This document shows positions 1 to 13,521 of a stretch of 13,521 nt of DNA, in pieces. The notes beneath the pieces are model-generated. The model had not been told where the DNA came from. It worked only from the letters and a program-made list of their open reading frames with translations, and ran no database searches. Numbering within the stretch: position 1 is the first letter of the stretch; every line of letters starts with the position of its first letter. Origin of the DNA: a virus (taxonomy: Duplodnaviria > Heunggongvirae > Uroviricota > Caudoviricetes); the IMG/VR virus record IMGVR_UViG_2526164613_000010; one strand, given 5' to 3'. The position numbers and the translations under genes are program-made.

Positions 1-1
1 G

Positions 2-628
2 GGCGGTGTCAAAATTCCGCACCTTTTCCCTGGTGATGATCTGAAACTACAGACTGCGCAGGATTCAGACAATGGATTTTCTGCGCTTGAACAGGCGCTG
101 CTGCGGTATATCGCCGCCGGTCTTGGCGTTTCCTACGAACAGTTGTCCCGTGATTACTCGAAGGTCAGTTACTCAAGTGCCCGCGCATCCGCCAATGAGC
201 CGTGGCGCTATTTTATGGGGCGGCGAAAATTTATTGCGGCCCGGCTGGCCACGCAGATGTTTTCCTGCTGGCTGGAAGAGGCACTTCTTCGGGGGATTAT
301 TCGTCCGCCACGGGCACGTTTTGATTTTTATCAGGCGCGATCAGCCTGGTCACGGGCAGAGTGGATTGGAGCCGGAAGAATGGCCATTGACGGGCTCAAG
401 GAAGTCCAGGAATCGGTGATGCGCATTGAGGCCGGACTGAGCACGTATGAGAAAGAGCTGGCGCTGATGGGCGAGGATTATCAGGACATTTTCCGCCAGC
501 AGGTCAGGGAATCTGCAGAGCGGGAAAAAGCCGGACTCTCACGTCCGGTGTGGATAGCGCAGGCGTATCAGCAGCAGATAGCGGAGAGTCGCAGGCCGGA
601 AGAGGAGACAACACCCCGTGAGACGTAA
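2..628 (+). CDS. B: Portal protein, 5'-partial (gene starts upstream of the window)
   Basis: Frame 2 is open from position 2 to TAA at 626-628. Translation (GGVKIPHLFPGDDLKLQTAQDSDNG...MAIDGLKEVQESVMRIEAGLSTYEKE...) matches the C-terminal third of lambda gpB as I recall it. The track ORF 143..628 is the internal-Met version of the same frame. Confidence 0.9.
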   Translation, partial: GGVKIPHLFPGDDLKLQTAQDSDNGFSALEQALLRYIAAGLGVSYEQLSRDYSKVSYSSARASANEPWRYFMGRRKFIAARLATQMFSCWLEEALLRGIIRPPRARFDFYQARSAWSRAEWIGAGRMAIDGLKEVQESVMRIEAGLSTYEKELALMGEDYQDIFRQQVRESAEREKAGLSRPVWIAQAYQQQIAESRRPEEETTPRET

Positions 629-926
629 TCTTTCACACATTATTGCCGCAGCATTCAATGAACCGCTGCTTCTGGAGCCCGCCTATGCGCGGGTTTTCTT
701 TTGCGCGCTCGGGCGCGAGATGGGGGCAGCAAGTCTTTCGGTACCACAGCAGCAGGTACAGCTTGATGCTCCCGGAATGCTGGCTGAAACGGACGAGTAC
801 ATGGCCGGAGGTAAACGACCGGCCCGTGTTTACCGGGTGGTGAACGGTATTGCTGTACTGCCGGTGACCGGCACGCTGGTGCACCGGCTGGGGGGATGCG
901 GCCATTTCCGGAATGACTGGCTATGA
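618..926 (+). CDS. C: Prohead protease/scaffold gpC, N-terminal segment in frame 0; frame is lost near the G6 run at 890-895
   Basis: GTG start at 618 overlaps the portal stop and follows GAGGAG at about 602-607. Translation RRNLSHIIAAAFNEPLLLEPAYARVFFCAL...NGIAVLPVTGTLV matches the lambda gpC N-terminus (NLPHIASMAFNEPLMLEPAYARVFFCAL...NGIAVLPVSGTLV). Homology then continues in frame +1, not frame 0. Confidence 0.75.
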   Translation: MRRNLSHIIAAAFNEPLLLEPAYARVFFCALGREMGAASLSVPQQQVQLDAPGMLAETDEYMAGGKRPARVYRVVNGIAVLPVTGTLVHRLGGCGHFRNDWL

Positions 927-1863
927 CGGCATTGTCGCCTGTCTTCAGCAGGCAATGGCAGATAGCCAGGTGCGGGGCGTACTGCTGGACATTGACAGTC
1001 CGGGCGGGCAGGCCGCCGGCGCGTTTGACTGCGCTGACATGATTTACCGCCTCCGTCAGCAGAAGCCGGTCTGGGCACTGTGCAATGACACGGCCTGTTC
1101 TGCAGCCATGCTGCTGGCGTCGGCCTGCTCCCGACGGCTGGTTACCCAGACATCCCGTATCGGCTCCATTGGCGTGATGATGAGCCATGTCAGCTATGCC
1201 GGTCATCTGGCGCAGGCCGGTGTGGATATCACGCTGATTTACTCAGGGGCGCACAAGGTGGATGGCAATCAGTTTGAAGCGTTGCCGGCAGAGGTTCGCC
1301 AGGACATGCAGCAGCGGATTGATGCGGCGCGCCGGATGTTTGCCGAAAAAGTGGCGATGTATACCGGGTTGTCTGTTGATGCCGTCACGGGAACAGAGGC
1401 CGCCGTTTTTGAAGGTCAGTCCGGCATTGAGGCCGGGCTGGCGGATGAATTAATCAATGCGTCGGATGCCATCAGTGTGATGGCCACGGCGCTGAACAGT
1501 AATGTCAGAGGAGGCACTATGCCGCAATTAACTGCAACGGAAGCCGCCGCGCAGGAGAACCAGCGAGTGATGGGGATCCTGACATGCCAGGAAGCGAAAG
1601 GACGTGAACAGCTTGCCACGATGCTGGCAGGACAACAGGGCATGAGCGTTGAACAGGCCCGGGCGATTCTGGCCGCGGCGGCACCGCAGCAGCCGGTGGC
1701 ATCCACGCAGAGTGAAGCCGATCGCATTATGGCGTGTGAAGAAGCGAACGGTCGTGAACAACTGGCGGCAACGCTGGCGGCGATGCCGGAGATGACGGTA
1801 GGAAAAAGTCCGCCCGATCCTGGCTGCTTCACCGCAGGCGGATGCCGGACCCTCACTCCGTGA
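913..1863 (+). CDS. C: Prohead protease gpC core (S49/ClpP-SppA-like serine peptidase) plus the start of the Nu3-like scaffold domain; frame-shifted relative to segments on both sides
   Basis: Translation MTGYDGIVACLQQ...GVLLDIDSPGGQAAGAFDCADMIYRLRQQKPVWALCNDTACSAAMLLASACSRRLVTQTSRIGSIGVMMSH...LIYSGAHKVDGN matches lambda gpC (MTGYNGIIARLQQ...ILLDMDTPGGMVAGAFDCAD...). Homology extends upstream of the ATG at 913 in this frame (GDAAISG), so the gene really begins at 618. Confidence 0.85.
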   Translation: MTGYDGIVACLQQAMADSQVRGVLLDIDSPGGQAAGAFDCADMIYRLRQQKPVWALCNDTACSAAMLLASACSRRLVTQTSRIGSIGVMMSHVSYAGHLAQAGVDITLIYSGAHKVDGNQFEALPAEVRQDMQQRIDAARRMFAEKVAMYTGLSVDAVTGTEAAVFEGQSGIEAGLADELINASDAISVMATALNSNVRGGTMPQLTATEAAAQENQRVMGILTCQEAKGREQLATMLAGQQGMSVEQARAILAAAAPQQPVASTQSEADRIMACEEANGREQLAATLAAMPEMTVGKSPPDPGCFTAGGCRTLTP

Positions 1864-1870
1864 TCAGATC

Positions 1871-2122
1871 ATGGCACTGGATGAGGCAAAAGGGGCTGAG
1901 GCGCAGGCTGAACAGCTGGCTGCCTGCCCGGGAATGACTGTGGAGAGCGCCCGGGCTGTGCTGGCTGCGGGATCAGGTAAGGCAGAACCGGTCTCTGCAT
2001 CCACAACCGCCCTGTTTGAACGCATCATGGCGAACCATTCACCGGCAGCGGTACAGGGTGGCGTGCCACAGACGTCAGCAGACGGTGATGCGGACGTGAA
2101 AATGCTCATGGCCATGCCATGA
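1871..2122 (+). CDS. nu3: C-terminal scaffold (Nu3-like) segment of the C gene, in a third frame
   Basis: Translation contains the motif EAKGAEAQAEQLAACPGMTVESARAVLAA, resembling the lambda C/Nu3 C-terminal motif CEEAHGREEQARVLAETPGMTVKTARRILAAAPQ. The frame is open upstream from about 1802 and continues the homology of the previous segment. Confidence 0.6.
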   Translation: MALDEAKGAEAQAEQLAACPGMTVESARAVLAAGSGKAEPVSASTTALFERIMANHSPAAVQGGVPQTSADGDADVKMLMAMP

Positions 2123-2158
2123 AGTCAGTGCTGATCATCAACAGGAGGTTTTTACAAT

Positions 2159-2506
2159 ATGGTAACGAAAACCATCACTGAACAGCGTGCGGAAGTACGT
2201 ATTTTTGCCGGTAATGATCCGGCTCATACCGCCACAGGCAGCAGCGGGATTTCCTCGCCAACACCGGCACTGACGCCCCTGATGCTGGATGAAGCTACCG
2301 GGAAACTGGTGGTCTGGGACGGACAGAAAGCCGGTAGTGCGGTTGGCATACTGGTACTGCCGCTTGAAGGCACAGAGACGGTACTGACGTATTACAAGTC
2401 GGGGACCTTTGCGACGGAGGCAATCCGCTGGCCTGACAGTGTGGATGAACACAAAAAGGCAAATGCCTTTGCCGGCAGTGCCCTGAGTCACGCGGCGCTG
2501 CCGTAA
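2159..2506 (+). CDS. D: Head decoration protein gpD
   Basis: AGGAGG at 2143-2148, ten nt upstream of the ATG. The 115-aa product (NDPAHTATGSS...TPLMLDEATGKLVVWDGQKAGSAVGIL...YYKSGTF...ANAFAGSA) closely matches lambda gpD. Confidence 0.92.
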   Translation: MVTKTITEQRAEVRIFAGNDPAHTATGSSGISSPTPALTPLMLDEATGKLVVWDGQKAGSAVGILVLPLEGTETVLTYYKSGTFATEAIRWPDSVDEHKKANAFAGSALSHAALP

Positions 2507-2514
2507 CACGTTAT

Positions 2515-2534
2515 CAGGCCACCGCGGTGGCCTG
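2515..2534. other. Perfect 20-bp palindrome CAGGCCACCGCGGTGGCCTG in the D-E spacer
   Basis: Read directly: the first 10 nt are the reverse complement of the last 10. It lies 9 nt after the D stop and 30 nt before the E start. No clear T-tract follows, so it is not a canonical intrinsic terminator. Confidence 0.4.
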
Positions 2535-2563
2535 ACTGATTTCTGAATGAAAGGAACTGATTT

Positions 2564-3592
2564 ATGGGATTGTTTACGACCCGCCAGTTACTCGGTTATA
2601 CCGAACAAAAAGTGAAATTTCGTGCGCTGTTTCTGGAGCTGTTTTTCCGCCGTACGGTGAATTTCCATACCGAAGAGGTGATGCTGGACAAAATTACCGG
2701 AAAAACGCCGGTGGCGGCCTATGTCTCCCCGGTTGTTGAAGGAAAAGTGCTGCGTCATCGCGGTGGTGAAACCCGCGTGTTACGTCCGGGCTACGTCAAG
2801 CCGAAACACGAATTTAATTACCAGCAGGCGGTTGAGCGCCTTCCTGGTGAAGATCCATCTCAACTGAATGATCCGGCTTACCGCCGTCTGCGTATCATTA
2901 CCGATAACCTCAAACAGGAAGAGCACGCGATTGTCCAGGTGGAAGAAATGCAGGCGGTAAATGCTGTGTTGTATGGCAAATACACGATGGAAGGAGACCA
3001 GTTCGAGAAAATTGAGGTCGATTTTGGCAGGTCGACGAAGAATAACATCACTCAGGGTAGTGGTAAGGAGTGGTCAAAACAGGATCGTGACACGTTCGAT
3101 CCTACACATGATATTGACCTCTACTGCGACCAGGCCAGCGGTCTTGTGAATATTGCCATTATGGACGGTACTGTCTGGCGTCTGCTGAATGGTTTTAAGC
3201 TGTTCCGCGAAAAACTGGATACCCGTCGCGGCTCAAATTCACAACTCGAAACGGCAGTGAAAGACCTGGGGGCGGTGGTGTCTTTCAAAGGGTATTACGG
3301 CGATCTGGCCATTGTGGTGGCGAAAACGTCTTATGTGGCAGAGGACGGTACCGAAAAACGTTATCTGCCGGAGGGCACGCTGGTCCTGGGAAATACGGCT
3401 GCAGATGGGATCCGTTGTTACGGTGCCATTCAGGATGCGCAGGCGTTGTCCGAAGGTGTGGTGGCTTCTTCCCGTTACCCGAAACACTGGCTGACCGTGG
3501 GCGATCCGGCCCGTGAATTTACCATGACGCAGTCCGCACCGCTGATGGTGCTGCCGGATCCGGATGAGTTTGTGGTGGTGCAGGTGAAATAA
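2564..3592 (+). CDS. E: Major capsid protein gpE
   Basis: AAGGA at 2551-2555 precedes the ATG. The 342-aa product (...GYVKPKHE...DPAYRRLRII...VEEMQAVNAVLYGKYTM...LDTRRGSNSQLETAVKDLG...TGDPAREFTMTQSAPLM.LPDPDEFV) is near-colinear with lambda gpE (341 aa). Confidence 0.95.
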   Translation: MGLFTTRQLLGYTEQKVKFRALFLELFFRRTVNFHTEEVMLDKITGKTPVAAYVSPVVEGKVLRHRGGETRVLRPGYVKPKHEFNYQQAVERLPGEDPSQLNDPAYRRLRIITDNLKQEEHAIVQVEEMQAVNAVLYGKYTMEGDQFEKIEVDFGRSTKNNITQGSGKEWSKQDRDTFDPTHDIDLYCDQASGLVNIAIMDGTVWRLLNGFKLFREKLDTRRGSNSQLETAVKDLGAVVSFKGYYGDLAIVVAKTSYVAEDGTEKRYLPEGTLVLGNTAADGIRCYGAIQDAQALSEGVVASSRYPKHWLTVGDPAREFTMTQSAPLMVLPDPDEFVVVQVK

Positions 3593-3597
3593 TCCGT

Positions 3598-3630
3598 GAG
3601 CGGGGGCGAAATGCCCCCGTGTCTTTTTTC
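3598..3630 (+). terminator. Candidate rho-independent terminator or attenuator directly after the major capsid gene
   Basis: GC-rich stem CGGGGGC (3601-3607) pairs with GCCCCCG (3613-3619) around loop GAAAT, followed by TGTCTTTTTTC with a T6 run at 3624-3629. Confidence 0.55.
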
Positions 3631-3643
3631 ACAGGGGGCTGAT

Positions 3644-4027
3644 ATGGCAACAAAAGAAGAAAATCAGAAACGTCTTCGTCAACTGGCTGGCCTGCTGGGG
3701 CGCGAGGCGGATATGTCGGGGAGTGCTGCGGATATTGCGCAACGTGTGTCTGAGTGGGAAGAGGAGCTTGCTGCTTCCCGGGAGGGCATTATGCCTGGTG
3801 ATGAGAGCGGGCCTGAGCAAAATCACACAGACGATGGTGAGCAGTTGCACAACACTGATGCTACGGATGATGTTAAAGCGGTCCGTGTGCGGAAATGCCT
3901 GCATGTGATGGGGTATTGCCCGGAGACAGGCCGTCCCGTTGAACTGACGTACCGGGGCATGCGTGTTCTGGTGCCATCACCACTGGCGACAGCCATGATA
4001 CAGCACGGAACGGCTGAGCATGCGTGA
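3644..4027 (+). CDS. FI: DNA-packaging / head completion protein gpFI
   Basis: ATG at 3644 follows a GGGGG Shine-Dalgarno-like run at 3634-3638. The acidic product MATKEENQKRLRQLAGLL... is similar in character and position to lambda gpFI. The track ORF starting at 3596 extends back through the terminator hairpin and is less likely. Confidence 0.8.
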   Translation: MATKEENQKRLRQLAGLLGREADMSGSAADIAQRVSEWEEELAASREGIMPGDESGPEQNHTDDGEQLHNTDATDDVKAVRVRKCLHVMGYCPETGRPVELTYRGMRVLVPSPLATAMIQHGTAEHA

Positions 4028-4373
4028 TTTTCAGAATGCCTTTGATGCTGCCCTCGCCGGGGTGGACAGCACGATTGTTGAAGTGATGGGGCTCTGTGCG
4101 CAGTTCACCTCGGGGGCACAGTGTGGCAGCGAAGTTCAGGGGGTTTTTGACGATCCGGAGTCGCTGGGGTTTGCCGGTGGCGGGGTCCGTATTGAAGGAA
4201 GCAGCCCGTCATTATTTGTGCGGACGGATACGGTTCGTGCCGTGCGGCGTGGTGACACGCTGACCATTAATGGTGAGATATTCTGGGTGGATCGTGTTTC
4301 TCCGGATGACGGGGGCAGCTGTTATCTCTGGCTCAACCGTGGTCAACCACCCGCAGTTAACCGGCGACGATAA
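4020..4373 (+). CDS. FII: Head-tail joining protein gpFII
   Basis: Product (...VFDDPESLGFAGGGVRIEGSSPSLFVRTD.VR..RRGDTLTI....FWVDRVSPDDGGSCYLWL.RG.PPAVNRRR) closely matches lambda gpFII. Overlaps the FI stop by 8 nt (ATGCGTGA). Confidence 0.92.
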   Translation: MRDFQNAFDAALAGVDSTIVEVMGLCAQFTSGAQCGSEVQGVFDDPESLGFAGGGVRIEGSSPSLFVRTDTVRAVRRGDTLTINGEIFWVDRVSPDDGGSCYLWLNRGQPPAVNRRR

Positions 4374-4388
4374 ACGCAGGGTGAAATT

Positions 4389-4922
4389 ATGGCGATAAAA
4401 GGGCTTGATCAGGCGATTGACAATCTGAGCCGGGTTCGTAAAAACGCCATTCCGGCGGCTTCAGCAATGGCCATTAACCGCGTGGCCACAACGGCGATTA
4501 ATCAGTCTTCATCACAGGTTGCCCGGGAGACCAGGGTGAGCCGGAAACTGGTTAAGGAACGGTCCAGACTGAAACGGGCGACGGTCAGAAATCCGAATGC
4601 CAGAATTATCGTTAACCGCGGTGATCTCCCTGTGATTAAGCTGGGGATCAGGATGCCGGGGCGTCGCCCGAACAGCATACTTAAAGCCGGTCAGCATCGG
4701 TATCAGCGGGCATTTATTCAGCGATTAAAAAATGGTCGCTGGCATGTCATGCAGCGTGTGGCCGGGAAAAACCGTTACCCCATTGATGTGGTGAAAATCC
4801 CGATGGCGGCCCCACTGAAACAGGCATTTGATGAGAATGTTGACCGTATCCGGCGTGAACGCCTGCCTAAAGAACTGGCATCCGCGCTGAAACAACAACT
4901 GAGGATTGCAATAAAACGATGA
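4389..4922 (+). CDS. Z: Minor tail protein gpZ (tail completion)
   Basis: MAIKGLDQAIDNLSR...AMAINRVA...QVARETRVSRKLVKERSRLKRATV.NP.ARI.VNRGDLPVIKLG...AFIQ.LKNGRWHVMQRVAGKNRYPIDVVKIPMA.PL...RIRRERLPKEL matches lambda gpZ. Confidence 0.92.
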   Translation: MAIKGLDQAIDNLSRVRKNAIPAASAMAINRVATTAINQSSSQVARETRVSRKLVKERSRLKRATVRNPNARIIVNRGDLPVIKLGIRMPGRRPNSILKAGQHRYQRAFIQRLKNGRWHVMQRVAGKNRYPIDVVKIPMAAPLKQAFDENVDRIRRERLPKELASALKQQLRIAIKR

Positions 4923-5314
4923 AACACACTGACATTCGTGCCGCAGTGCTGGATGCACTCGAGCAGCATGAACACGGGGCGACGCTGTTTGATGGTCGCC
5001 CCGTTGTTTTTGACGAAGAGGATTTCCCTGCGATCGCGGTTTATCTGACGGATGCAGAGTATACCGGTGAAGAGCTGGATGCAGATACCTGGCGGGCCAC
5101 GCTGCATATTGAGGTGTTTTTACCGGCACAGGTACCGGATTCAGAGCTTGATCAGTGGATGGAAAGCCGGATTTACCCGGCGATGACCGCGATCCCGGCA
5201 CTGGCAGGACTGATTACCACGATGGTTACGCAGGGCTATGAGTATCGTCGTGATGACGATATGGCGTTATGGAGTTCTGCAGATCTGACTTATTCCATTA
5301 CATACGAGATGTGA
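4919..5314 (+). CDS. U: Tail terminator protein gpU
   Basis: [93 protein letters not shown]...[13 protein letters not shown] matches lambda gpU. ATGA overlap with the Z stop. Confidence 0.93.
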
Positions 5315-5321
5315 GGACGAT

Positions 5322-7335
<2,014 letters not shown>

Positions 7336-7348
7336 ACGGAGGTCATAC

Positions 7349-7780
7349 ATGTTTCTGAAAACCGAACAATTTGAATATAACGGTGTGTCTGTCACGCTTT
7401 CCGAATTGTCTGCGCTGCAGCGTATTGAGCATCTTGCCCTCCTGAAACGGCGTGCAGAACAGGCAGAATCCAGCGGCAACCTGCAGGTAAGCGTGGAAGA
7501 TCTCGTCAGAACCGGCGCGTTTCTGGTGGCGATGTCCCTGTGGCATAACCATCCGCAGAAAACGGCATCACCGTCAATGAATGAGGCCGTGATGCAGATC
7601 GAACAGGAGGTGCTCACCACCTGGCCTGCGGATGCCATTGCCCGGGCGGAAGATGTGGTGTTGCGTCTGTCCGGGATGAGCGGGGCTGTTCATGCGGATA
7701 CTGATAGCACCGAAGTGGCGAAAAATAACGCGCTGACTGATGATGATTTTTCTGCGGGAAAGTCTTCGACGGCGAGCTGA
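7349..7780 (+). CDS. G: Tail assembly chaperone gpG
   Basis: GGAGG at 7337-7341 precedes the ATG at 7349. MFLKTEQFEYNGVSVTLSELSALQRIEHLAL.KR.AEQAES...VED..RTGAFLVAMSLWHNHPQKT..PSMNEAV.QIEQEVLTTWP matches lambda gpG. The track ORF start at 7277 overlaps V and is not used. Confidence 0.92.
   Translation: MFLKTEQFEYNGVSVTLSELSALQRIEHLALLKRRAEQAESSGNLQVSVEDLVRTGAFLVAMSLWHNHPQKTASPSMNEAVMQIEQEVLTTWPADAIARAEDVVLRLSGMSGAVHADTDSTEVAKNNALTDDDFSAGKSSTAS
7756..7762 (+). other. Programmed -1 frameshift slippery heptamer G GGA AAG producing the gpG-T fusion
   Basis: In the G frame the codons are GCG GGA AAG, five codons before the G stop. The -1 frame is open from here into the T ORF (GKVFDGELNFALRLAREMGRPDW...). 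Same heptamer and position as the lambda G-T shift. Confidence 0.85.
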
Positions 7781-7806
7781 ATTTTGCCCTCAGACTGGCG
7801 CGTGAG

Positions 7807-8220
7807 ATGGGGAGGCCTGACTGGCGCGCCATGCTTGCCGGGATGACATCCACCGAATATGCCGACTGGCGACATTTTTACCGTACGCATTATTTTCACG
7901 ATACCCAACTGGATATGCATTTTTCCGGGCTGACGTACGCCGTACTCAGCCTGTTTTTTTGCGATCCGGATATGCATCCCTCTGATTTCAGTCTGCTTGT
8001 CCCCCGGCATGAGGAAGAGCAGGTGGAGAGGCCGGATGAGGACAAAATGCTGATGCAGAAAGCGGCAGGACTTGCCGGAGGCGTCCGGTTCGGTGGGGAC
8101 GGAGGGCGCGATATTTTATCGTCTGCGGATGTGGCGGATGTCATGGTGGATGATGCCGCATTAATGATGGCTTCAGCGGGGATTCCGGGAGGTGTGAGAT
8201 ATGTCCCAGCCGGTTGGTGA
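7807..8220 (+). CDS. T: Tail assembly chaperone gpT ORF, expected to be expressed only as a G-T fusion (7349..7762 joined in the -1 frame to 7762..8220)
   Basis: REMGRPDWRAMLAGM.STEYADW..FY.THYFHD..LDMHFSGLTY.VLSLFF.DPDMHP.DFSLL...LMQKAAGLAGGVRFG.DG...ADVAD...DD..LM..S.GI.GGVRY matches lambda gpT. There is no independent RBS; the first in-frame Met is at 7807. Confidence 0.88.
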   Translation: MGRPDWRAMLAGMTSTEYADWRHFYRTHYFHDTQLDMHFSGLTYAVLSLFFCDPDMHPSDFSLLVPRHEEEQVERPDEDKMLMQKAAGLAGGVRFGGDGGRDILSSADVADVMVDDAALMMASAGIPGGVRYVPAGW

Positions 8221-10780
8221 TCTTGTTATTGACCTGAGTCTGGATGCGGTCCGTTTCGATGAGCAGATGAGCCGGGTAAGGCGTCATTTTTCAGGTCTGG
8301 ATACCGACGTCAGAAAAACCGCCAGTGCTGTTGAACAGGGCCTGAGCCGCCAGGCGCTGGCTGCACAAAAAGCCGGGATTTCCGTCGGGCAGTATAAAGC
8401 GGCCATGCGAACCCTGCCCGCACAGTTTACGGATATCGCCACGCAGCTTGCCGGTGGTCAGAATCCCTGGCTGATCCTGCTGCAACAGGGCGGTCAGGTG
8501 AAGGACTCCTTCGGCGGGATGATCCCCATGTTCAGGGGGCTTGCCGGTGCGATCACCCTGCCGATGGTCGGGGTCACCTCGCTGGCGGTGGCGACAGGTG
8601 CGCTGGTGTACGCCTGGTACCAGGGGGATTCCACGCTTTCAGCGTTTAATAAAACCCTGGTTCTTTCCGGTAATCAGTCCGGACTGACTGCCGATCGTAT
8701 GCTGACTCTCTCAAGAGCCGGGCAGGCAGCAGGGCTGACGTTTAACCAGGCGAGAGAGTCACTGGCAGCCCTGGTGAATGCCGGTGTGCGTGGTGGTGAA
8801 CAGTTTGATGCCATCAACCAGAGTGTCGCGCGTTTTGCGTCTGCATCCGGTGTGGAGGTGGATAAAGTCGCTGAAGCCTTCGGGAAGCTGACCACTGACC
8901 CGACGTCGGGACTGATGGCGATGGCGCGCCAGTTCCGTAACGTGACGGCAGAGCAGATTGCGTATGTTGCACAGCTGCAGCGTTCCGGAGACGAGGCCGG
9001 GGCATTGCAGGCGGCGAACGATATCGCCACGAAAGGCTTTGATGAGCAGACCCGTCGCCTGAAAGAAAACATGGGAACACTGGAGACCTGGGCGGATAAA
9101 ACAGGGAAGGCATTCAAATCGATGTGGGATGCCATTCTGGATATCGGTCGTCCTGAGTCCTCAGCGGATATGCTCGCCAGTGCACAGAAGGCATTTGATG
9201 AGGCGGATAAAAAATGGCAGTGGTACCAGAGCCGGAGCCAGCGCCGGGGAAAAACCGCCTCTTTCCGGGCCAACCTGCAGGGCGCATGGAATGACCGGGA
9301 AAATGCCCGTCTGGGGCTGGCAGCGGCCACGCTGCAGTCGGATATGGAAAAAGCCGGTGAACTGGCCGCCAGGGACCGGGCCGAACGGGACGCATCACAG
9401 CTGAAGTATACCGGAGAGGCGCAGAAGGCGTATGAGCGTCTGCTGACGCCGCTGGAGAAATATACCGCCCGTCAGGAAGAACTGAATAAGGCCCTGAAAG
9501 ACGGGAAAATCCTGCAGGCGGATTACAACACGCTGATGGCGGCGGCGAAAAAGGATTATGAATCGACGCTGAAAAAGCCGAAGTCGTCAGGAGTCAAAGT
9601 GTCAGCCGGTGAGCGTCAGGAAGACCAGGCGCATGCTGCCCTGCTGGCGCTTGAAACCGAGCTCCGGACGCTGGAAAAACACAGCGGTGCGAATGAGAAA
9701 ATCAGCCAGCAGCGTCGCGATTTATGGAAAGCGGAAAATCAGTATGCGGTCCTGAAAGAGGCAGCCACGAAACGGCAGTTATCTGAGCAGGAAAAATTCC
9801 TGCTGACCCATGAGAAAGAGACGCTGGAGTACAAACGCCAGCTGGCTGAGCTTGGCGACAAGGTTGAACACCAGAAACGGCTGAATGAGCTGGCACAGCA
9901 GGCGGCGCGGTTTGAACAGCAGCAGAGCGCGAAGCAGGCAGCCATCAGCGCAAAAGCCCGCGGCCTCACCGACCGTCAGGCGCAGCGGGAGTCGGAAGAG
10001 CAGCGCCTTCGTGACGTGTACGGTGATAATCCGGCTGCGCTGGCGAAGGCCACATCTGCACTGAAGAACACCTGGTCTGCGGAGGAGCAGCTTCGTGGAA
10101 GCTGGATGGCCGGGCTGAAGTCCGGCTGGGGCGAGTGGGCGGAAAGTGCGACGGACAGTTTTTCGCAGGTTAAAAGCGCGGCCACGCAGACCTTTGACGG
10201 TATTGCACAGAATATGGCGGGGATGCTGACCGGCAGCGAACAGAACTGGCGTGGTTTCACCCGTTCCGTGCTCTCCATGCTGACAGAGATTTTTCTGAAG
10301 CAGGCCATGGTGGGGATTGTCGGGAGTATTGGCAGCGCCATGGGTGGTGCTTTCGGTGGTGGGGCGTCTGCCTCCACGGGGACGGCCATTCAGGCTGCGG
10401 CGGCGAACTTCCATTTCGCGACCGGGGGATTTACGGGAACGGGGGGCAAATACGAACCTGCCGGTATTGTCCACCGCGGGGAGTTTGTCTTCACGAAGGA
10501 AGCAACCAGCCGGATTGGCGTCGGCAACCTGTACCGCCTGATGCGGGGCTATGCGGAAGGTGGTTATGTGGGCGGTGCCGGAAGTCCGGCGCAGATGCGG
10601 CGGACGGAAGGCATTAATTTTAATCAGAACAATCACGTGGTGATTCAGAACGACGGCTCCAACGGACAGGCGGGGCCGCAGCTGATGAAGGCGGTGTATG
10701 ACATGGCCCGCAAGGGGGCGCAGGATGAGATTCAGGCGCAGATGCGTGATGGCGGCGTCTTTTCCGGAGGCAGGCGATGA
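8201..10780 (+). CDS. H: Tail tape-measure protein gpH
   Basis: 859 aa against 853 for lambda gpH. Long colinear matches: M..PVGDLV.DLSLDA.RFDEQM.RVRRHFSG, AGISVGQYKAAMR.LPAQFTD.ATQLAGGQ.PWLILLQQGGQVKDSFGGMIPMFRGLAGAITLPMVG, and C-terminal ...GGFTGTGGKYEPAGIVHRGEFVFTKEATSRIGVGNLYRLMRGYA.GGYVG. Overlaps the T stop. Confidence 0.95.
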   Translation: MSQPVGDLVIDLSLDAVRFDEQMSRVRRHFSGLDTDVRKTASAVEQGLSRQALAAQKAGISVGQYKAAMRTLPAQFTDIATQLAGGQNPWLILLQQGGQVKDSFGGMIPMFRGLAGAITLPMVGVTSLAVATGALVYAWYQGDSTLSAFNKTLVLSGNQSGLTADRMLTLSRAGQAAGLTFNQARESLAALVNAGVRGGEQFDAINQSVARFASASGVEVDKVAEAFGKLTTDPTSGLMAMARQFRNVTAEQIAYVAQLQRSGDEAGALQAANDIATKGFDEQTRRLKENMGTLETWADKTGKAFKSMWDAILDIGRPESSADMLASAQKAFDEADKKWQWYQSRSQRRGKTASFRANLQGAWNDRENARLGLAAATLQSDMEKAGELAARDRAERDASQLKYTGEAQKAYERLLTPLEKYTARQEELNKALKDGKILQADYNTLMAAAKKDYESTLKKPKSSGVKVSAGERQEDQAHAALLALETELRTLEKHSGANEKISQQRRDLWKAENQYAVLKEAATKRQLSEQEKFLLTHEKETLEYKRQLAELGDKVEHQKRLNELAQQAARFEQQQSAKQAAISAKARGLTDRQAQRESEEQRLRDVYGDNPAALAKATSALKNTWSAEEQLRGSWMAGLKSGWGEWAESATDSFSQVKSAATQTFDGIAQNMAGMLTGSEQNWRGFTRSVLSMLTEIFLKQAMVGIVGSIGSAMGGAFGGGASASTGTAIQAAAANFHFATGGFTGTGGKYEPAGIVHRGEFVFTKEATSRIGVGNLYRLMRGYAEGGYVGGAGSPAQMRRTEGINFNQNNHVVIQNDGSNGQAGPQLMKAVYDMARKGAQDEIQAQMRDGGVFSGGRR

Positions 10781-11106
10781 AAACATTTCGCTGGAAAGTG
10801 AAGCCGGATATGGAGGTGAACTCGCAGCCATCGGTGCGTGAAGTGCGTTTTGGTGACGGGTATTCGCAGCGTATGGCGGCGGGGCTGAATGCTGACCTGA
10901 AAACATACCGTGTGACGCTTTCCGTGACCCGGGAGGAGGCCCGACATCTGGAGGCATTCCTGGCAGAGCACGGTGGCTGGAAGGCGTTTCTGTGGACACC
11001 GCCTTATGCCTGGCGGCAGATAAAGGTGACCTGTGCCGCCTGGTCATCACGGGTTCGCATGCTGCGGGTTGAATTCAGTGCCGAGTTTAAGCAGGTGGTG
11101 AACTGA
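10777..11106 (+). CDS. M: Minor tail protein gpM
   Basis: 109-aa ORF in the lambda M position, between H and L. ATGA overlap with the H stop at the 5' end and TGATG overlap with the L start at the 3' end. Confidence 0.85.
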   Translation: MKTFRWKVKPDMEVNSQPSVREVRFGDGYSQRMAAGLNADLKTYRVTLSVTREEARHLEAFLAEHGGWKAFLWTPPYAWRQIKVTCAAWSSRVRMLRVEFSAEFKQVVN

Positions 11107-11804
11107 TGCAGGATATTCACGAAGAAAGTCTGAACGAGTCGGTTAAATCAGAGCAGTCACCGCGGGTGGTACTCTGGGAAATCGACCTGACGGTACAGGG
11201 TGGTGAGCGGTATTTTTTCTGCAATGAGCTGAATGAAAAAGGGGAGGCGGTTACCTGGCAGGGGCGGCAATATCAGGCATACCCGATTGACGGCAGTGGC
11301 TTTGAGATGAACGGGAAGGGCAGCAGTGCCCGCCCGTCGCTGACGGTGTCCAATCTGTTCGGTCTGGTCACCGGAATGGCGGAGGACCTGCAGAGCCTGG
11401 TGGGGGCCACGGTGGTCCGCCGCCGGGTGTATGCCCGTTTTCTGGATGCGGTGAATTTTGTGGCGGGCAATCCGGAAGCGGACCCGGAGCAGGAGCTGAG
11501 CGACCGCTGGGTGGTGGAGCAGATGTCAGAGCTGACGGCCATGACAGCCTCGTTTGTGCTGGCAACACCGACGGAGACGGACGGAGCGCTGTTTCCCGGT
11601 CGCATCATGCTGGCGAACACCTGTATGTGGGATTACCGGGGAGATGAATGCGGGTATAACGGTCCTGCGGTGGCGGATGAGTTCGACAACCCCACCACGG
11701 ATATCCGTAAGGACAGATGCAGCAAGTGCATGCGCGGGTGTGAGATGCGCGGCATGGTGGCTAATTTTGGCGGTTTCCTTTCCATTAACAAACTTTCGCA
11801 GTAA
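11106..11804 (+). CDS. L: Minor tail protein gpL (tail tip; C-terminal cysteine cluster)
   Basis: MQDI..E.LNE....EQS..VVLWEIDLT..GGERYFFCNE.NEKGE.VTWQGRQYQ.YPI.GSGFE.NGKG.S.RP.LTVSNL.G.VTGMAED.QSLVG.TVVRR.VYARFLDAVNFV.GN..ADPEQE...RW..EQ.SEL...SASFVL.TPTETDGA.FPGRIMLANTC.W.YRGDECGY.GPAVADE.D.PT.DI.KD.CSKC...C......V.NFGGFLSINKLSQ matches lambda gpL. Confidence 0.93.
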   Translation: MQDIHEESLNESVKSEQSPRVVLWEIDLTVQGGERYFFCNELNEKGEAVTWQGRQYQAYPIDGSGFEMNGKGSSARPSLTVSNLFGLVTGMAEDLQSLVGATVVRRRVYARFLDAVNFVAGNPEADPEQELSDRWVVEQMSELTAMTASFVLATPTETDGALFPGRIMLANTCMWDYRGDECGYNGPAVADEFDNPTTDIRKDRCSKCMRGCEMRGMVANFGGFLSINKLSQ

Positions 11805-11809
11805 ATCCA

Positions 11810-12553
11810 ATGACACAGACAGAATCAGCGATTCTGGCGCATGCCCGGCGGTGTGTGCCTGCGGAGTCGTGGGGCTTCGTGGTGAGAACGCCGGAGGGGG
11901 AGCGGTATATCCCTTGTGTGAATATCTCTGCAGAGCCGGAGGCGTATTTTCGTATTGCACCGGAAGACTGGCTGCGGGCAGAGATGCAGGGGGAGATTGT
12001 GGCACTGGTCCACAGTCATCCCGGTGGTCTGCCCTGGCTGAGCGAGGCCGACCGGCGGCTGCAGATAAAAAGTGCACTGTCCTGGTGGCTGGTCTGCCGG
12101 GGGGACATTCATAAATTCCGCTGTGTGCCACATCTGACAGGACGGCTCTTTGAGCACGGGGTGACGGACTGTTACACGCTGTTCCGGGATGCATACCATC
12201 TGGCGGGAATTGATATGCCGGATTTTGAGCGTGAGGATGACTGGTGGCGCAATGGTCAGAACCTGTACCTGGACAATATGGAGGCGACTGGTTTTTACAG
12301 GATTTCCCTGCCTTCCGCACAGCCTGGCGATATCCTGCTGTGCTGCTTTGGCGCATCGGTGGCCAATCATGCCGCCATATACTGCGGCAACGGTGAACTG
12401 CTTCACCATCTGCCTGAACAACTGAGTAAACGGGAGAGGTATTCCGAAAAATGGCAACGACGAACGCATTCTGTCTGGCGTCACCGCCACTGGCACGCAT
12501 CTGCCTTCACGGGGATTTGCAACGATTTGGCCGCCGCCTCAGCCTGTATGTGA
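11810..12553 (+). CDS. K: Tail tip assembly protein gpK (JAB/MPN metalloprotease-like plus NlpC/P60 cysteine peptidase-like domains)
   Basis: MTQTESAILAHARRC.PAES.GFVV.TPEGERY.PCVNIS.EPEA...PEDWL.AEMQGEIVALVHSHPGGLPWLSEADRRLQ..S...WWLVCRG.IHKFRCVPHLTGR.FEHGVTDCYTLFRDAYHLAGI.MPDF.REDDWWRNGQNLYLDN.EATG.Y...L...QPGD.LLCCFG.SV.NHAAIYCG.GELLHH.PEQLSKRERY..KWQRRTHS.WRHR.W.ASAFTGI.NDL matches lambda gpK. JAMM-like HSHP...S..D and NlpC/P60-like Cys (DCYTL) and His (NHAAIY) are present. Confidence 0.93.
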   Translation: MTQTESAILAHARRCVPAESWGFVVRTPEGERYIPCVNISAEPEAYFRIAPEDWLRAEMQGEIVALVHSHPGGLPWLSEADRRLQIKSALSWWLVCRGDIHKFRCVPHLTGRLFEHGVTDCYTLFRDAYHLAGIDMPDFEREDDWWRNGQNLYLDNMEATGFYRISLPSAQPGDILLCCFGASVANHAAIYCGNGELLHHLPEQLSKRERYSEKWQRRTHSVWRHRHWHASAFTGICNDLAAASACM

Positions 12554-13131
12554 ACACGGCAGCGGAAGCCATCCGGGCGCTGTTGTTACAGGTGCCGGGA
12601 TTCCGCCGTCAGATGAACGAAGGCTGGTACCAGATACGTATTCGCGGTGAGGACACGGCACCGGAGGCGGTGTACGCCCGTCTTCACGAACCTCTGGGTG
12701 AGGGGGCGGTCATCCATATTGTGCCGCGACTGGCCGGAGCCGGAAAGGGCGGACTGCAGATTGTGCTGGGGGCGGCGGCCATCGTGGGGTCGTTCTTCAC
12801 GGCCGGGGCATCAATGGCGTTATGGGGTTCAGCCCTGGCAGCCGGTGGTTTTTCTGCCACCACGATGCTGTTTTCACTGGGGGCCAGCATGATTCTGGGT
12901 GGTGTGGCTCAGATGCTGGCCCCGAAGGCTAAAGTACCGGAGTACAAAAGCACGGATAACGGCAGACAGAACACGTACTTTTCGTCGCTGGATAACATGA
13001 TTGCCCAGGGGAACCCGATGCCGGTGCCTTACGGTGAAATGCTGGTTGGCTCCCGGCGAATCTCCCAGGACATCAGCACCCGTGATGAAGGCGGTGACGG
13101 GAAGGTGGTGGTTATCGGGCGGCAGGCATAA
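12451..13131 (+). CDS. I: Tail tip assembly protein gpI
   Basis: ...ARICL.GDLQRFGRR..L.V.T.AEAIRAL..Q.P.FR......GWYQ.RI.G.D........LHE.L..GAVIHIVPR.AGA..GG.FQIVLGAAAI.GSFFTAGA.....G.A..AGG......FSLGASM.LGGVAQMLAPKA..P....TDNG.QNTYFSSLDNM.AQGN..PV.YGEM.VGSR..SQ.IST.DEG.....VVVIGR matches lambda gpI. About 100 nt overlap with the 3' end of K, as in lambda. Confidence 0.9.
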   Translation: MATTNAFCLASPPLARICLHGDLQRFGRRLSLYVNTAAEAIRALLLQVPGFRRQMNEGWYQIRIRGEDTAPEAVYARLHEPLGEGAVIHIVPRLAGAGKGGLQIVLGAAAIVGSFFTAGASMALWGSALAAGGFSATTMLFSLGASMILGGVAQMLAPKAKVPEYKSTDNGRQNTYFSSLDNMIAQGNPMPVPYGEMLVGSRRISQDISTRDEGGDGKVVVIGRQA

Positions 13132-13142
13132 AACATAAAAAA

Positions 13143-13174
13143 TCCCGCAGTGCTCACGGACAGGAACTGCGGGA
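13143..13174 (-). other. Hairpin in the I-J spacer, terminator-like when read on the minus strand
   Basis: TCCCGCAGT (13143-13151) pairs with ACTGCGGGA (13166-13174) around a 14-nt loop. On the plus strand an A-rich tract AAACATAAAAAA at 13130-13141 precedes it, overlapping the last base or two of the I stop; on the minus strand that is a T-tract trailing the stem. The loop is large for an intrinsic terminator. Confidence 0.3.
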
Positions 13175-13304
13175 GAGTTACGAAGATTAACTATAGAGAG
13201 TTATTCTTATGTCACGACAAAAAACATTAACGCAGAGAAATTATTAGCGCCACAGTCAGTGTGTGAAAATGTGAAGATATTCAGAATTTTTATTCAGTCA
13301 TGAT

Positions 13305-13338
13305 ACAGGCATCCTCCGGGATGCCTGTTGTTTTTGTG
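13305..13338 (+). terminator. Strong rho-independent terminator-like hairpin in the I-J spacer, about 30 nt upstream of the J start
   Basis: 10-bp stem ACAGGCATCC (13305-13314) pairs with GGATGCCTGT (13319-13328) around loop TCCG, followed by TGTTTTTGTG. Confidence 0.55.
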
Positions 13339-13369
13339 CGTAACAGTTATCACAGTAAAGGGTGAGACA

Positions 13370-13521
13370 ATGGGCAAAGGTGGCGGCAAGGCGCACACGC
13401 CGGTAGAGGCAAAGGACAATCTTAAGTCCACGCAGATGATGAGCGTGATTGATGCCATTGGTGAAGGGCCGATTGAAGGTCCGGTGAAGGGGCTGCAGAG
13501 TATCCTGGTGAACAAAACCCG
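13370..13521 (+). CDS. J: Tail tip / host-specificity protein gpJ, 3'-partial (continues beyond the window)
   Basis: MGKGGGKAHTPVEAKDNLKSTQMMSVIDAIGEGPIEGPVKGLQSILVNKT matches the lambda gpJ N-terminus (MGKGSSKGHTPREAKDNLKSTQLLSVIDAISEGPIEGPV.GLKS.L.N.T). A GGGTGAG Shine-Dalgarno-like motif lies upstream. Confidence 0.92.
   Translation, partial: MGKGGGKAHTPVEAKDNLKSTQMMSVIDAIGEGPIEGPVKGLQSILVNKT

What the first reader, a model, noticed from the sequence alone, without database searches (positions are those of the whole stretch)
618..2122. Prohead protease/scaffold gene C/Nu3 is split across three reading frames by two indels at homopolymer runs
Homology to lambda gpC runs in frame 0 from 618 to about 893, in frame +1 from about 893 to about 1800, and in frame +2 from about 1802 to 2122. 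The first shift coincides with a G6 run at 890-895 (CTGGGGGGATG); deleting one G or adding two restores TLVHRLG(G)DAAISGMTGY, compared with lambda TLVSRTRALQPYSGMTGY. The second coincides with GGAAAAAG at 1801-1808; deleting one nt restores …PEMTVEKVRPILAASPQ…, continuing the conserved scaffold motif. Both need the same correction (minus 1 nt) and both sit in homopolymers. That is the signature of either sequencing indel errors or slipped-strand mutations in a decaying prophage. No programmed frameshift is known in lambda C.
Basis: seen in the sequence. Interest (0 to 1): 0.55.

Follow-up and report, generated by a model that had tools for sequence, protein, structure and literature searches.

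The report
Assembly indels split prophage protease gene
The phage head-protease gene looks broken into three frames because this 2012 draft contig has three single-base indels. The finished genome of the same E. coli strain has the gene intact, so this is almost certainly an assembly artefact and is biologically ordinary.

Summary
The window is the whole draft contig AIFR01000021.1 of E. coli O55:H7 DEC5B. It carries a phage-21/lambda-type head and tail module. The C-type gene (S49 prohead protease plus scaffold, 618-2122) is split over three frames, but by three single-base indels, not two:
- the G run at 890-895 is G6 (finished genome G7);
- the T run at 905-907 is T3 (finished genome T4);
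- there is an extra A at 1800 (GGT-A-GGAAAAAG), which is not inside a homopolymer.

The finished genome of the same strain (PacBio plus Illumina, CP038389) matches window 407-12471 exactly apart from these three indels. It encodes an intact 501-aa protein colinear with lambda gpC.

No copy of the gene in 5,426 complete E. coli genomes matches the window exactly across either indel site. That rules out the G6+T3 combination and, in this background, the extra A. All three indels lie in a 3.46-kb stretch present twice, identically, in DEC5B. The contig's 3' end is joined to a different prophage.

Best reading: consensus errors in a collapsed, chimeric draft contig (confidence about 0.85).

One item is unexplained. 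The same T4-to-T3 loss recurs in other low-quality assemblies, and G6+T3 recurs in one unrelated contig assembled from a public read run.

The parts
618..2122 (+). Phage-21 gp5 / lambda gpC-type gene (S49 prohead protease plus Nu3-like scaffold domain), read here as three out-of-frame pieces. The intact form is 1506 nt and 501 aa.
618..926 (+). ORF 1 (102 aa, EHV32398.1). It holds the N-terminal 93 residues of the real protein, then an out-of-frame tail CGHFRNDWL.
890..895 (+). Indel 1: G6 run. The same strain's finished genome has G7; other relatives have G7 or G6T.
905..907 (+). Indel 2: T3 run. The finished genome has T4, and no copy in a complete E. coli genome showed T3 in the two sequence backgrounds queried.
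913..1863 (+). ORF 2 (316 aa, EHV32399.1). It holds the S49 peptidase domain and the first scaffold repeats, and ends in an out-of-frame tail after 1800. This exact product is found only in this contig.
1800..1800 (+). Indel 3: an extra A between GGT and GGAAAAAG. It is absent from the finished DEC5B genome, and no copy in a complete genome matches the window exactly across it.
1871..2122 (+). ORF 3 (83 aa, EHV32400.1), the C-terminal end of the scaffold domain.
1..2986 (.). The part of the contig that corresponds to a 3.46-kb stretch present twice and identically in the finished DEC5B genome (copy 1 at 2.139 Mb, copy 2 at 4.236 Mb). All three indels fall here. Positions 1-406 also carry 10 SNPs that match neither copy.
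2987..12471 (.). The part specific to copy 1, including the ISEc31 insertion in the major tail gene (about 5604-6861). It has zero differences from the finished genome.
12472..13521 (.). Chimeric 3' end. Window 12440-13520 is 100% identical to a different DEC5B prophage (NZ_CP038389.1 2954740-2955820), not to the continuation of copy 1.

Best explanation
The three frame breaks are consensus errors of a 2012 draft assembly, not features of the DEC5B genome. The gene is a normal single ORF of 501 aa: an S49 prohead protease with a C-terminal scaffold domain, the homologue of lambda C/Nu3 and phage 21 gene 5.

The errors arose where the assembler merged reads from two identical copies of the portal-C-D region, and probably a third, diverged copy. 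The same contig is also wrongly joined to another prophage at its 3' end.

Shown here: the origin of the contig, the absence of the indels from the finished genome, the repeat structure, and the chimerism.

Inferred: that read errors or consensus errors, rather than real mutations in the DNA that was sequenced, produced the indels. The sequencing platform was not verified.
For: 1. The window is contig AIFR01000021.1 of GCA_000249515.2, E. coli DEC5B. The three ORF products are EHV32398, EHV32399 and EHV32400.
2. The finished genome of the same strain (PacBio RSII/HGAP3 plus MiSeq/Pilon; PMC9413875) has an intact 1506-nt gene. It matches window 407-12471 exactly except for the three indels, with no substitutions in 12,065 nt.
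3. Strain identity is independently shown. Window 12440-13520 matches only DEC5B at 99% or better among 3,064 matching records, and it does so in another prophage.
4. All three indels lie in the 3.46-kb stretch that is identical in DEC5B copies 1 and 2. The 9.5 kb specific to copy 1 has no error. The chance of three out of three falling there is (2580/12065)^3, about 0.01.
5. Census of complete genomes. No exact match to the G6+T3 site was found among 2,693 copies, and none to the +A site among 2,773 copies, in about 1,750 genomes. DEC5B's own three copies are included.
6. The 316-aa product, which is bounded by both breaks, occurs only in this contig. The product expected from the +A insertion alone is absent from a collection of 15 billion proteins.
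7. The intact reading is colinear with lambda gpC across site 1. All 17 closely related sequenced phages, including phage 21, ev017 and the PhiR12 phages, read as a fused gene through site 1.
8. The finished genome still keeps other prophage frameshifts: a 1-nt deletion in the copy-2 portal gene, and a frameshifted portal and tape-measure gene in the NleA prophage. Polishing therefore did not simply repair everything.
Against: 1. An unrelated contig assembled from a public read run (SRR26800242_1223) is 100% identical over 3,550 nt to strain MCJCHV-1 except for the same two deletions, G7 to G6 and T4 to T3. This pair of changes recurs and is not random noise.
2. T3 alone occurs in 54 blocks of the collection, on at least four local sequence versions.
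3. If the draft came from a de Bruijn assembler, reads carrying the indels must have existed.
4. The draft's platform could not be verified.
5. The two DEC5B assemblies may come from different laboratory stocks.
Confidence: 0.85

Rival explanations
1. The indels are real mutations. The DNA stock sequenced for the 2012 draft carried a copy-1 C gene inactivated by slipped-strand or other indels, within a prophage already crippled by ISEc31. The stock used for the finished genome lacks them.
For: The prophage is defective in both assemblies, because ISEc31 sits in the major tail gene. The G run really is polymorphic: G6 alone occurs in finished genomes where the annotation calls the gene frameshifted. 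Variants of the N-terminal product with G6, G8 or G7T occur in 137, 74 and 65 contigs, including megabase-size ones. G6+T3 was found again in an independent data set.
Against: This needs three independent indels within 911 nt and none, plus no substitution, in the other 11 kb. It also needs them to fall exactly in the repeat-collapsed part of a demonstrably chimeric contig. Neither T3 (in the backgrounds queried) nor the extra A was found in any of about 2,700 finished copies. After the first frameshift there would be no selection for the others.
Confidence: 0.1
2. The finished genome is the wrong one. Copy 1 truly carries the indels, but short-read polishing with reads that map equally well to the identical copy 2 made it look intact.
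For: Copies 1 and 2 are identical over 3.46 kb, and the finished genome was polished with Pilon.
Against: The long-read consensus is made first and copy by copy. A non-homopolymer insertion (+A) and a T3 run would survive it, and reads carrying them would map best to that copy. Other frameshifts were kept in this genome. The intact form agrees with all relatives.
Confidence: 0.03
3. This is a real unusual coding arrangement: programmed frameshifting, or a deliberately split protease gene.
For: Deletions of one base at this junction (G6 alone, or T3 alone) give a 99-aa ORF whose TGA stop overlaps the ATG of a 402-aa ORF in an ATGA motif. That layout is compatible with translational coupling.
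Against: The window's combination has net shifts of -2 and then +1. It gives neither the ATGA overlap nor any restoring frame. Orthologues in finished genomes and in isolated phages are single ORFs. No slippery site is conserved with this frame structure.
Confidence: 0.02

Closest known systems
Phage lambda gpC / Nu3 (S49 prohead protease with a nested scaffold protein)
   Same: Same position between the portal gene and the D and E genes. The repaired protein is 54% identical and colinear, and it has the PF01343 domain.
   Different: 501 aa against 439 aa. The extra length is in the C-terminal scaffold part, which by eye has three copies of a motif of about 45 aa where lambda has roughly one. 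In this window the gene is interrupted by three indels.
Phage 21 gene 5 (head-tail preconnector / capsid protease-scaffold) and related sequenced phages (ev017, 4A7, PhiR12)
   Same: 95.9-98% identity over the first 98 residues, and the same module order.
   Different: Across site 1, the only stretch compared, those phages read as a fused gene with no frame break. The rest of their gene was not examined.
Indel errors in draft assemblies of repeated lambdoid prophages
   Same: Single-base indels are confined to a collapsed repeat, the contig ends are chimeric, and the indels are absent from the finished genome of the same strain.
   Different: One of the three is not in a homopolymer, and two of them recur in other data sets. 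A purely random error model does not predict that.
Real G-run frameshift alleles of the same gene in finished E. coli genomes (for example 2013C-4991 and CRE287, where the annotation marks the gene as frameshifted)
   Same: Same G run, same G6 state.
   Different: Those carry G6 alone with T4 and no extra A, and they sit in long-read or hybrid finished assemblies.

Membership tests
Lambda gpC-type prohead protease/scaffold (Peptidase S49) | Peptidase_S49 domain (PF01343) above the curated cut-off | tested here: met
   122.9 bits against a cut-off of 24.9 in ORF 913-1863. 121.6 bits in the intact DEC5B protein.
Lambda gpC-type prohead protease/scaffold (Peptidase S49) | Colinear homology to lambda gpC, including the SGMTGY region | tested here: met
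   54% identity, E=1e-142. LGGMRPFSGMTGY aligns without gaps to RTRALQPYSGMTGY.
Lambda gpC-type prohead protease/scaffold (Peptidase S49) | Gene lies between the portal gene and the decoration and major capsid genes | tested here: met
   Portal 1-628, C 618-2122, D 2159-2506, E 2564-3592.
Lambda gpC-type prohead protease/scaffold (Peptidase S49) | Nested in-frame Nu3-like scaffold start, and catalytic Ser/Lys residues | not tested
   No start-site or active-site analysis was done.
Programmed ribosomal frameshift | The same frame structure is conserved in orthologues, with a slippery site | tested here: not met
   Every finished-genome copy fetched is a single 1506-nt ORF, apart from the two G6 alleles annotated as frameshifted. 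None of about 2,700 copies matches the window across either indel site. The 17 close phage relatives read as fused across site 1.
Real pseudogene formed by slipped-strand mutation | The indels are reproduced in independent sequencing of the same strain | tested here: not met
   Finished DEC5B genome: G7, T4 and no extra A in both identical copies.
Sequencing/assembly artefact | Absent from the finished genome of the same strain while the surrounding sequence is identical | tested here: met
   Zero other differences in 12,065 nt.
Sequencing/assembly artefact | Located in a collapsed repeat or a misassembled contig | tested here: met
   An exact two-copy repeat covers window-equivalent -478 to 2986. 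The 3' end is chimeric. The 5' 406 nt match no finished genome.
Sequencing/assembly artefact | Read-level evidence (allele fraction, strand bias, platform) | not testable with these tools
   No read access. The paper describing the draft (PMC3370608) is not held.

The most novel reading that the evidence does not exclude
The junction between the N-terminal domain of about 95 aa and the S49 protease domain (GGGGGGGATGCGGCCATTTTCCGGAATGAC) might be a real hot spot for indels. Deletions of one base there (G7 to G6, T4 to T3, or loss of the A before the T run) repeatedly create a two-ORF form of 99 aa plus 402 aa. The first ORF's TGA stop overlaps the second ORF's ATG in an ATGA motif, so the two could be translationally coupled. 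The window's G6+T3 would then be a further step in such a series rather than an error.
Probability: 0.06. Interest if true: 0.35.

Novelty: not a real feature. Interest (0 to 1): 0.05.

Why it matters
The value here is mainly annotation hygiene.
- Three GenBank proteins (EHV32398.1, EHV32399.1, EHV32400.1) are fragments of one normal gene.
- Counts of decaying prophage genes taken from draft assemblies of EHEC/EPEC genomes, which carry many prophages, will be inflated by such errors.
- The finished DEC5B genome should replace the draft for any prophage analysis.

There is no new biology in the finding itself.

Tried and rejected
1. A paralogous copy as donor of the indels. Rejected, because none of DEC5B's three copies, and no finished genome, carries G6+T3 or the extra A. 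Copy 2 is identical to copy 1 here.

2. Pyrosequencing flow artefacts: undercalling of G7 and of the next T4, and a carry-forward A at T-GG-AAAAA given the TACG flow order. This is attractive but was devised after seeing the data. There are 22 similar contexts in the 12 kb and only one carries an error. T3 also occurs where there is no preceding G7 and in contigs whose names indicate SPAdes or MEGAHIT assemblies, presumably Illumina. The platform of the draft could not be established: the sequencing centre used either 454/Celera or HiSeq/Velvet at that time, and the paper is not held.

3. T3 as an old, functional split allele. Not supported. None was found among about 2,700 finished copies in two sequence backgrounds, and none among 17 close phage relatives. 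Every contig carrying it is 16 kb or shorter. Two of the ten examined show several other split genes, and the two whose names give coverage have 3.5x and 4x.

4. A quasi-palindrome template switch (CATTTTCCGGAATG). This would remove two Ts, not one, so it was rejected by inspection.

5. Locating DEC5B's third, diverged copy to explain SNPs 1-406. Not achieved, because the search lists only the best place in each record.

Full report
**What is in the window.** ORF listing and three-frame translation confirm that 618-926, 913-1863 and 1871-2122 lie in three different frames. The middle ORF carries a Peptidase_S49 domain (PF01343, 122.9 bits). The surrounding genes are those of a lambda/phage-21 head and tail module: portal, C, D, E, FI, FII, Z, U, V, G/T, H, M, L, K, I. 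V is interrupted by an IS3-family ISEc31 element.

**How many indels, and where.** Alignment to the nearest intact genes shows three single-base differences.
- The G run at 890-895 is G6. Relatives have G7 or G6T.
- The T run at 905-907 is T3. Relatives have T4.
- There is an extra A at 1800. The window reads ACGGTAGGAAAAAG and relatives read ACGGTGGAAAAAG.

The intact gene is 1506 nt and the window's version is 1505 nt. The true reading is LGGMRPFSGMTGY, which aligns without gaps to lambda's RTRALQPYSGMTGY. Overall identity to lambda gpC is 54%, E=1e-142. The third indel sits two bases upstream of the A5 run, not inside a homopolymer.

**Where the window comes from.** An exact-product look-up shows that the window is the complete contig AIFR01000021.1 of GCA_000249515.2, the draft genome of E. 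coli DEC5B. The three ORFs were deposited as EHV32398.1, EHV32399.1 and EHV32400.1.

The same strain was later finished with PacBio RSII/HGAP3 and polished with MiSeq reads using Pilon (PMC9413875; NZ_CP038389.1). In that genome the gene is one 1506-nt ORF annotated as an S49 family peptidase.

From window 407 to 12471 the two assemblies are identical, ISEc31 insertion included, except for the three indels. There is no substitution in 12,065 nt.

**The contig is a repeat-collapsed chimera.**
- Window 12440-13520 is 100% identical to a different DEC5B prophage, an NleA-carrying prophage with an HK97-type head module at 2,954,740-2,955,820. DEC5B is the only record at 99% or better among 3,064 with a match. 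This proves both the strain identity and a misjoin at about 12472.
- Window 1-406 carries 10 SNPs that match no finished genome better than 99.5%.
- The finished genome holds two copies that encode the identical 501-aa protein, at 2.139 Mb and 4.236 Mb. The two copies are base-for-base identical over window-equivalent -478 to 2986.

All three indels lie in this exact repeat, and the 9.5 kb specific to copy 1 has no difference. By chance, three out of three would fall in the repeat with a probability of about 0.01.

**Census.**
- Using 74-nt queries, none of 2,693 copies of the site in about 1,750 complete E. coli genomes matches G6+T3. Eleven records differ from the window by a single gap. Two of these were checked directly and are G6 with T4, and a third (RM12275-C1) is implied to be G6-only by the product look-up. 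In both checked genomes the annotation marks the gene as frameshifted.
- None of 2,773 copies matches the window exactly across the insertion at 1800. The best match is DEC5B itself, with one gap.
- The 316-aa product bounded by both breaks exists only in this contig. The product expected from the extra A alone is absent from the collection.
- The 17 closely related sequenced phages all read as a fused gene across site 1.

**Homopolymer context.** In the 12-kb identical stretch there are two runs of 7 bases (G7 changed, T7 not changed), seven runs of 6 (none changed), 56 runs of 5 (none changed) and 115 runs of 4. Among the runs of 4, only the T4 that starts nine bases after the G7 run ends is changed.

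**What remains unexplained.**
- A contig assembled from a public read run, SRR26800242_1223, is identical over 3,550 nt to strain MCJCHV-1 except for the same G7-to-G6 and T4-to-T3 pair.
- T3 alone gives a 99-aa ORF ending MRPFPE whose stop overlaps the start of a 402-aa ORF in an ATGA motif. It occurs in 54 blocks of the collection on at least four local sequence versions, and one contig lacks the preceding A instead. Over about 2.1 kb the contigs differ by up to 158 substitutions.
- All these contigs are 16 kb or shorter. They include two drafts with several other split genes (LT-68, SRR035597). The two contigs whose names give coverage have 3.5x and 4x.
- No finished genome has T3 in either sequence background tested.

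I read this as a site that is prone to error in low-quality data. A real but rare mutational hot spot is not excluded.

**Mechanism of the artefact (inferred).** I could not verify the platform of the draft. The paper is not held. The same centre used 454 Titanium/Celera or HiSeq2000/Velvet at that time. A pyrosequencing explanation fits all three changes: undercalled G7 and T4, and a carry-forward A before GG-AAAAA. But it was devised after seeing the data, and T3 also appears in assemblies that look Illumina-based.

What is shown is that the errors are confined to the collapsed repeat of a chimeric contig. What is inferred is that consensus or read errors there produced them.

**Verdict.** The best explanation is a draft-assembly artefact (0.85). 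Real stock-specific mutations come second (0.10). An error in the finished genome (0.03) and an unusual coding arrangement (0.02) are unlikely. Novelty: not a real feature. Interest: low.

Noticed in passing
window 12472-13521: The contig switches from prophage copy 1 into a different DEC5B prophage, the NleA prophage at 2.955 Mb. In the finished genome, copy 1 continues with different K/I sequence, then sodC, then a J pseudogene. This is a draft misjoin.
   Followed up: yes
window 1-406: Ten SNPs relative to both identical DEC5B copies, with no finished genome above 99.5% identity. This is probably a mixed consensus with a third, diverged portal copy that I could not locate.
   Followed up: partly
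window about 5604-6861 (transposase ORFs on the minus strand, 5613-6826): An ISEc31 (IS3-family) element interrupts the major tail protein gene V (fragments 5322-5603 and 6862-7335). It is present identically in the finished genome, so this defect of the prophage is real.
   Followed up: yes
L011-L020 (site equivalent to window 885-915): A recurrent one-base deletion at CCATTTTCC (T4 to T3; in L012 the A is lost instead). It gives a 99-aa ORF and a 402-aa ORF overlapping in ATGA. It occurs on at least four local sequence versions, only in contigs of 16 kb or less, and never in finished genomes or isolated phages.
   Followed up: partly
L007 (SRR26800242_1223) 2630-2645: The same G6+T3 double deletion as the window, in a contig otherwise 100% identical to strain MCJCHV-1. 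The platform of the run is unknown. The coupling of the two deletions is unexplained.
   Followed up: partly
window 890-895 and homologous sites in L003 and L010: The G run varies in length across assemblies. G6 alone was confirmed in two finished genomes, among 11 that differ from the window by one gap. G6, G8 and G7T versions of the N-terminal product occur in 137, 74 and 65 contigs. This looks like a real slippage-prone tract.
   Followed up: partly
L024 about 8742 (window-equivalent -641), DEC5B copy 2: Relative to copy 1, the finished genome's second copy lacks one G in the portal gene, and no portal ORF is called there. This is a candidate real frameshift in the sister prophage.
   Followed up: no
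window about 1560-2010: The scaffold (Nu3-like) part contains three tandem copies of a motif of about 45 aa (Q/EEAxGREQLAxxLAxxxGMTVExARxILAA). Lambda gpC aligns to only the first. This accounts for most of the extra 62 aa.
   Followed up: no
window 7349-8220: ORFs for tail chaperones G (7349-7780) and T (7807-8220) are laid out as in lambda, where G-T is made by a programmed -1 frameshift. The slippery site was not examined.
   Followed up: no
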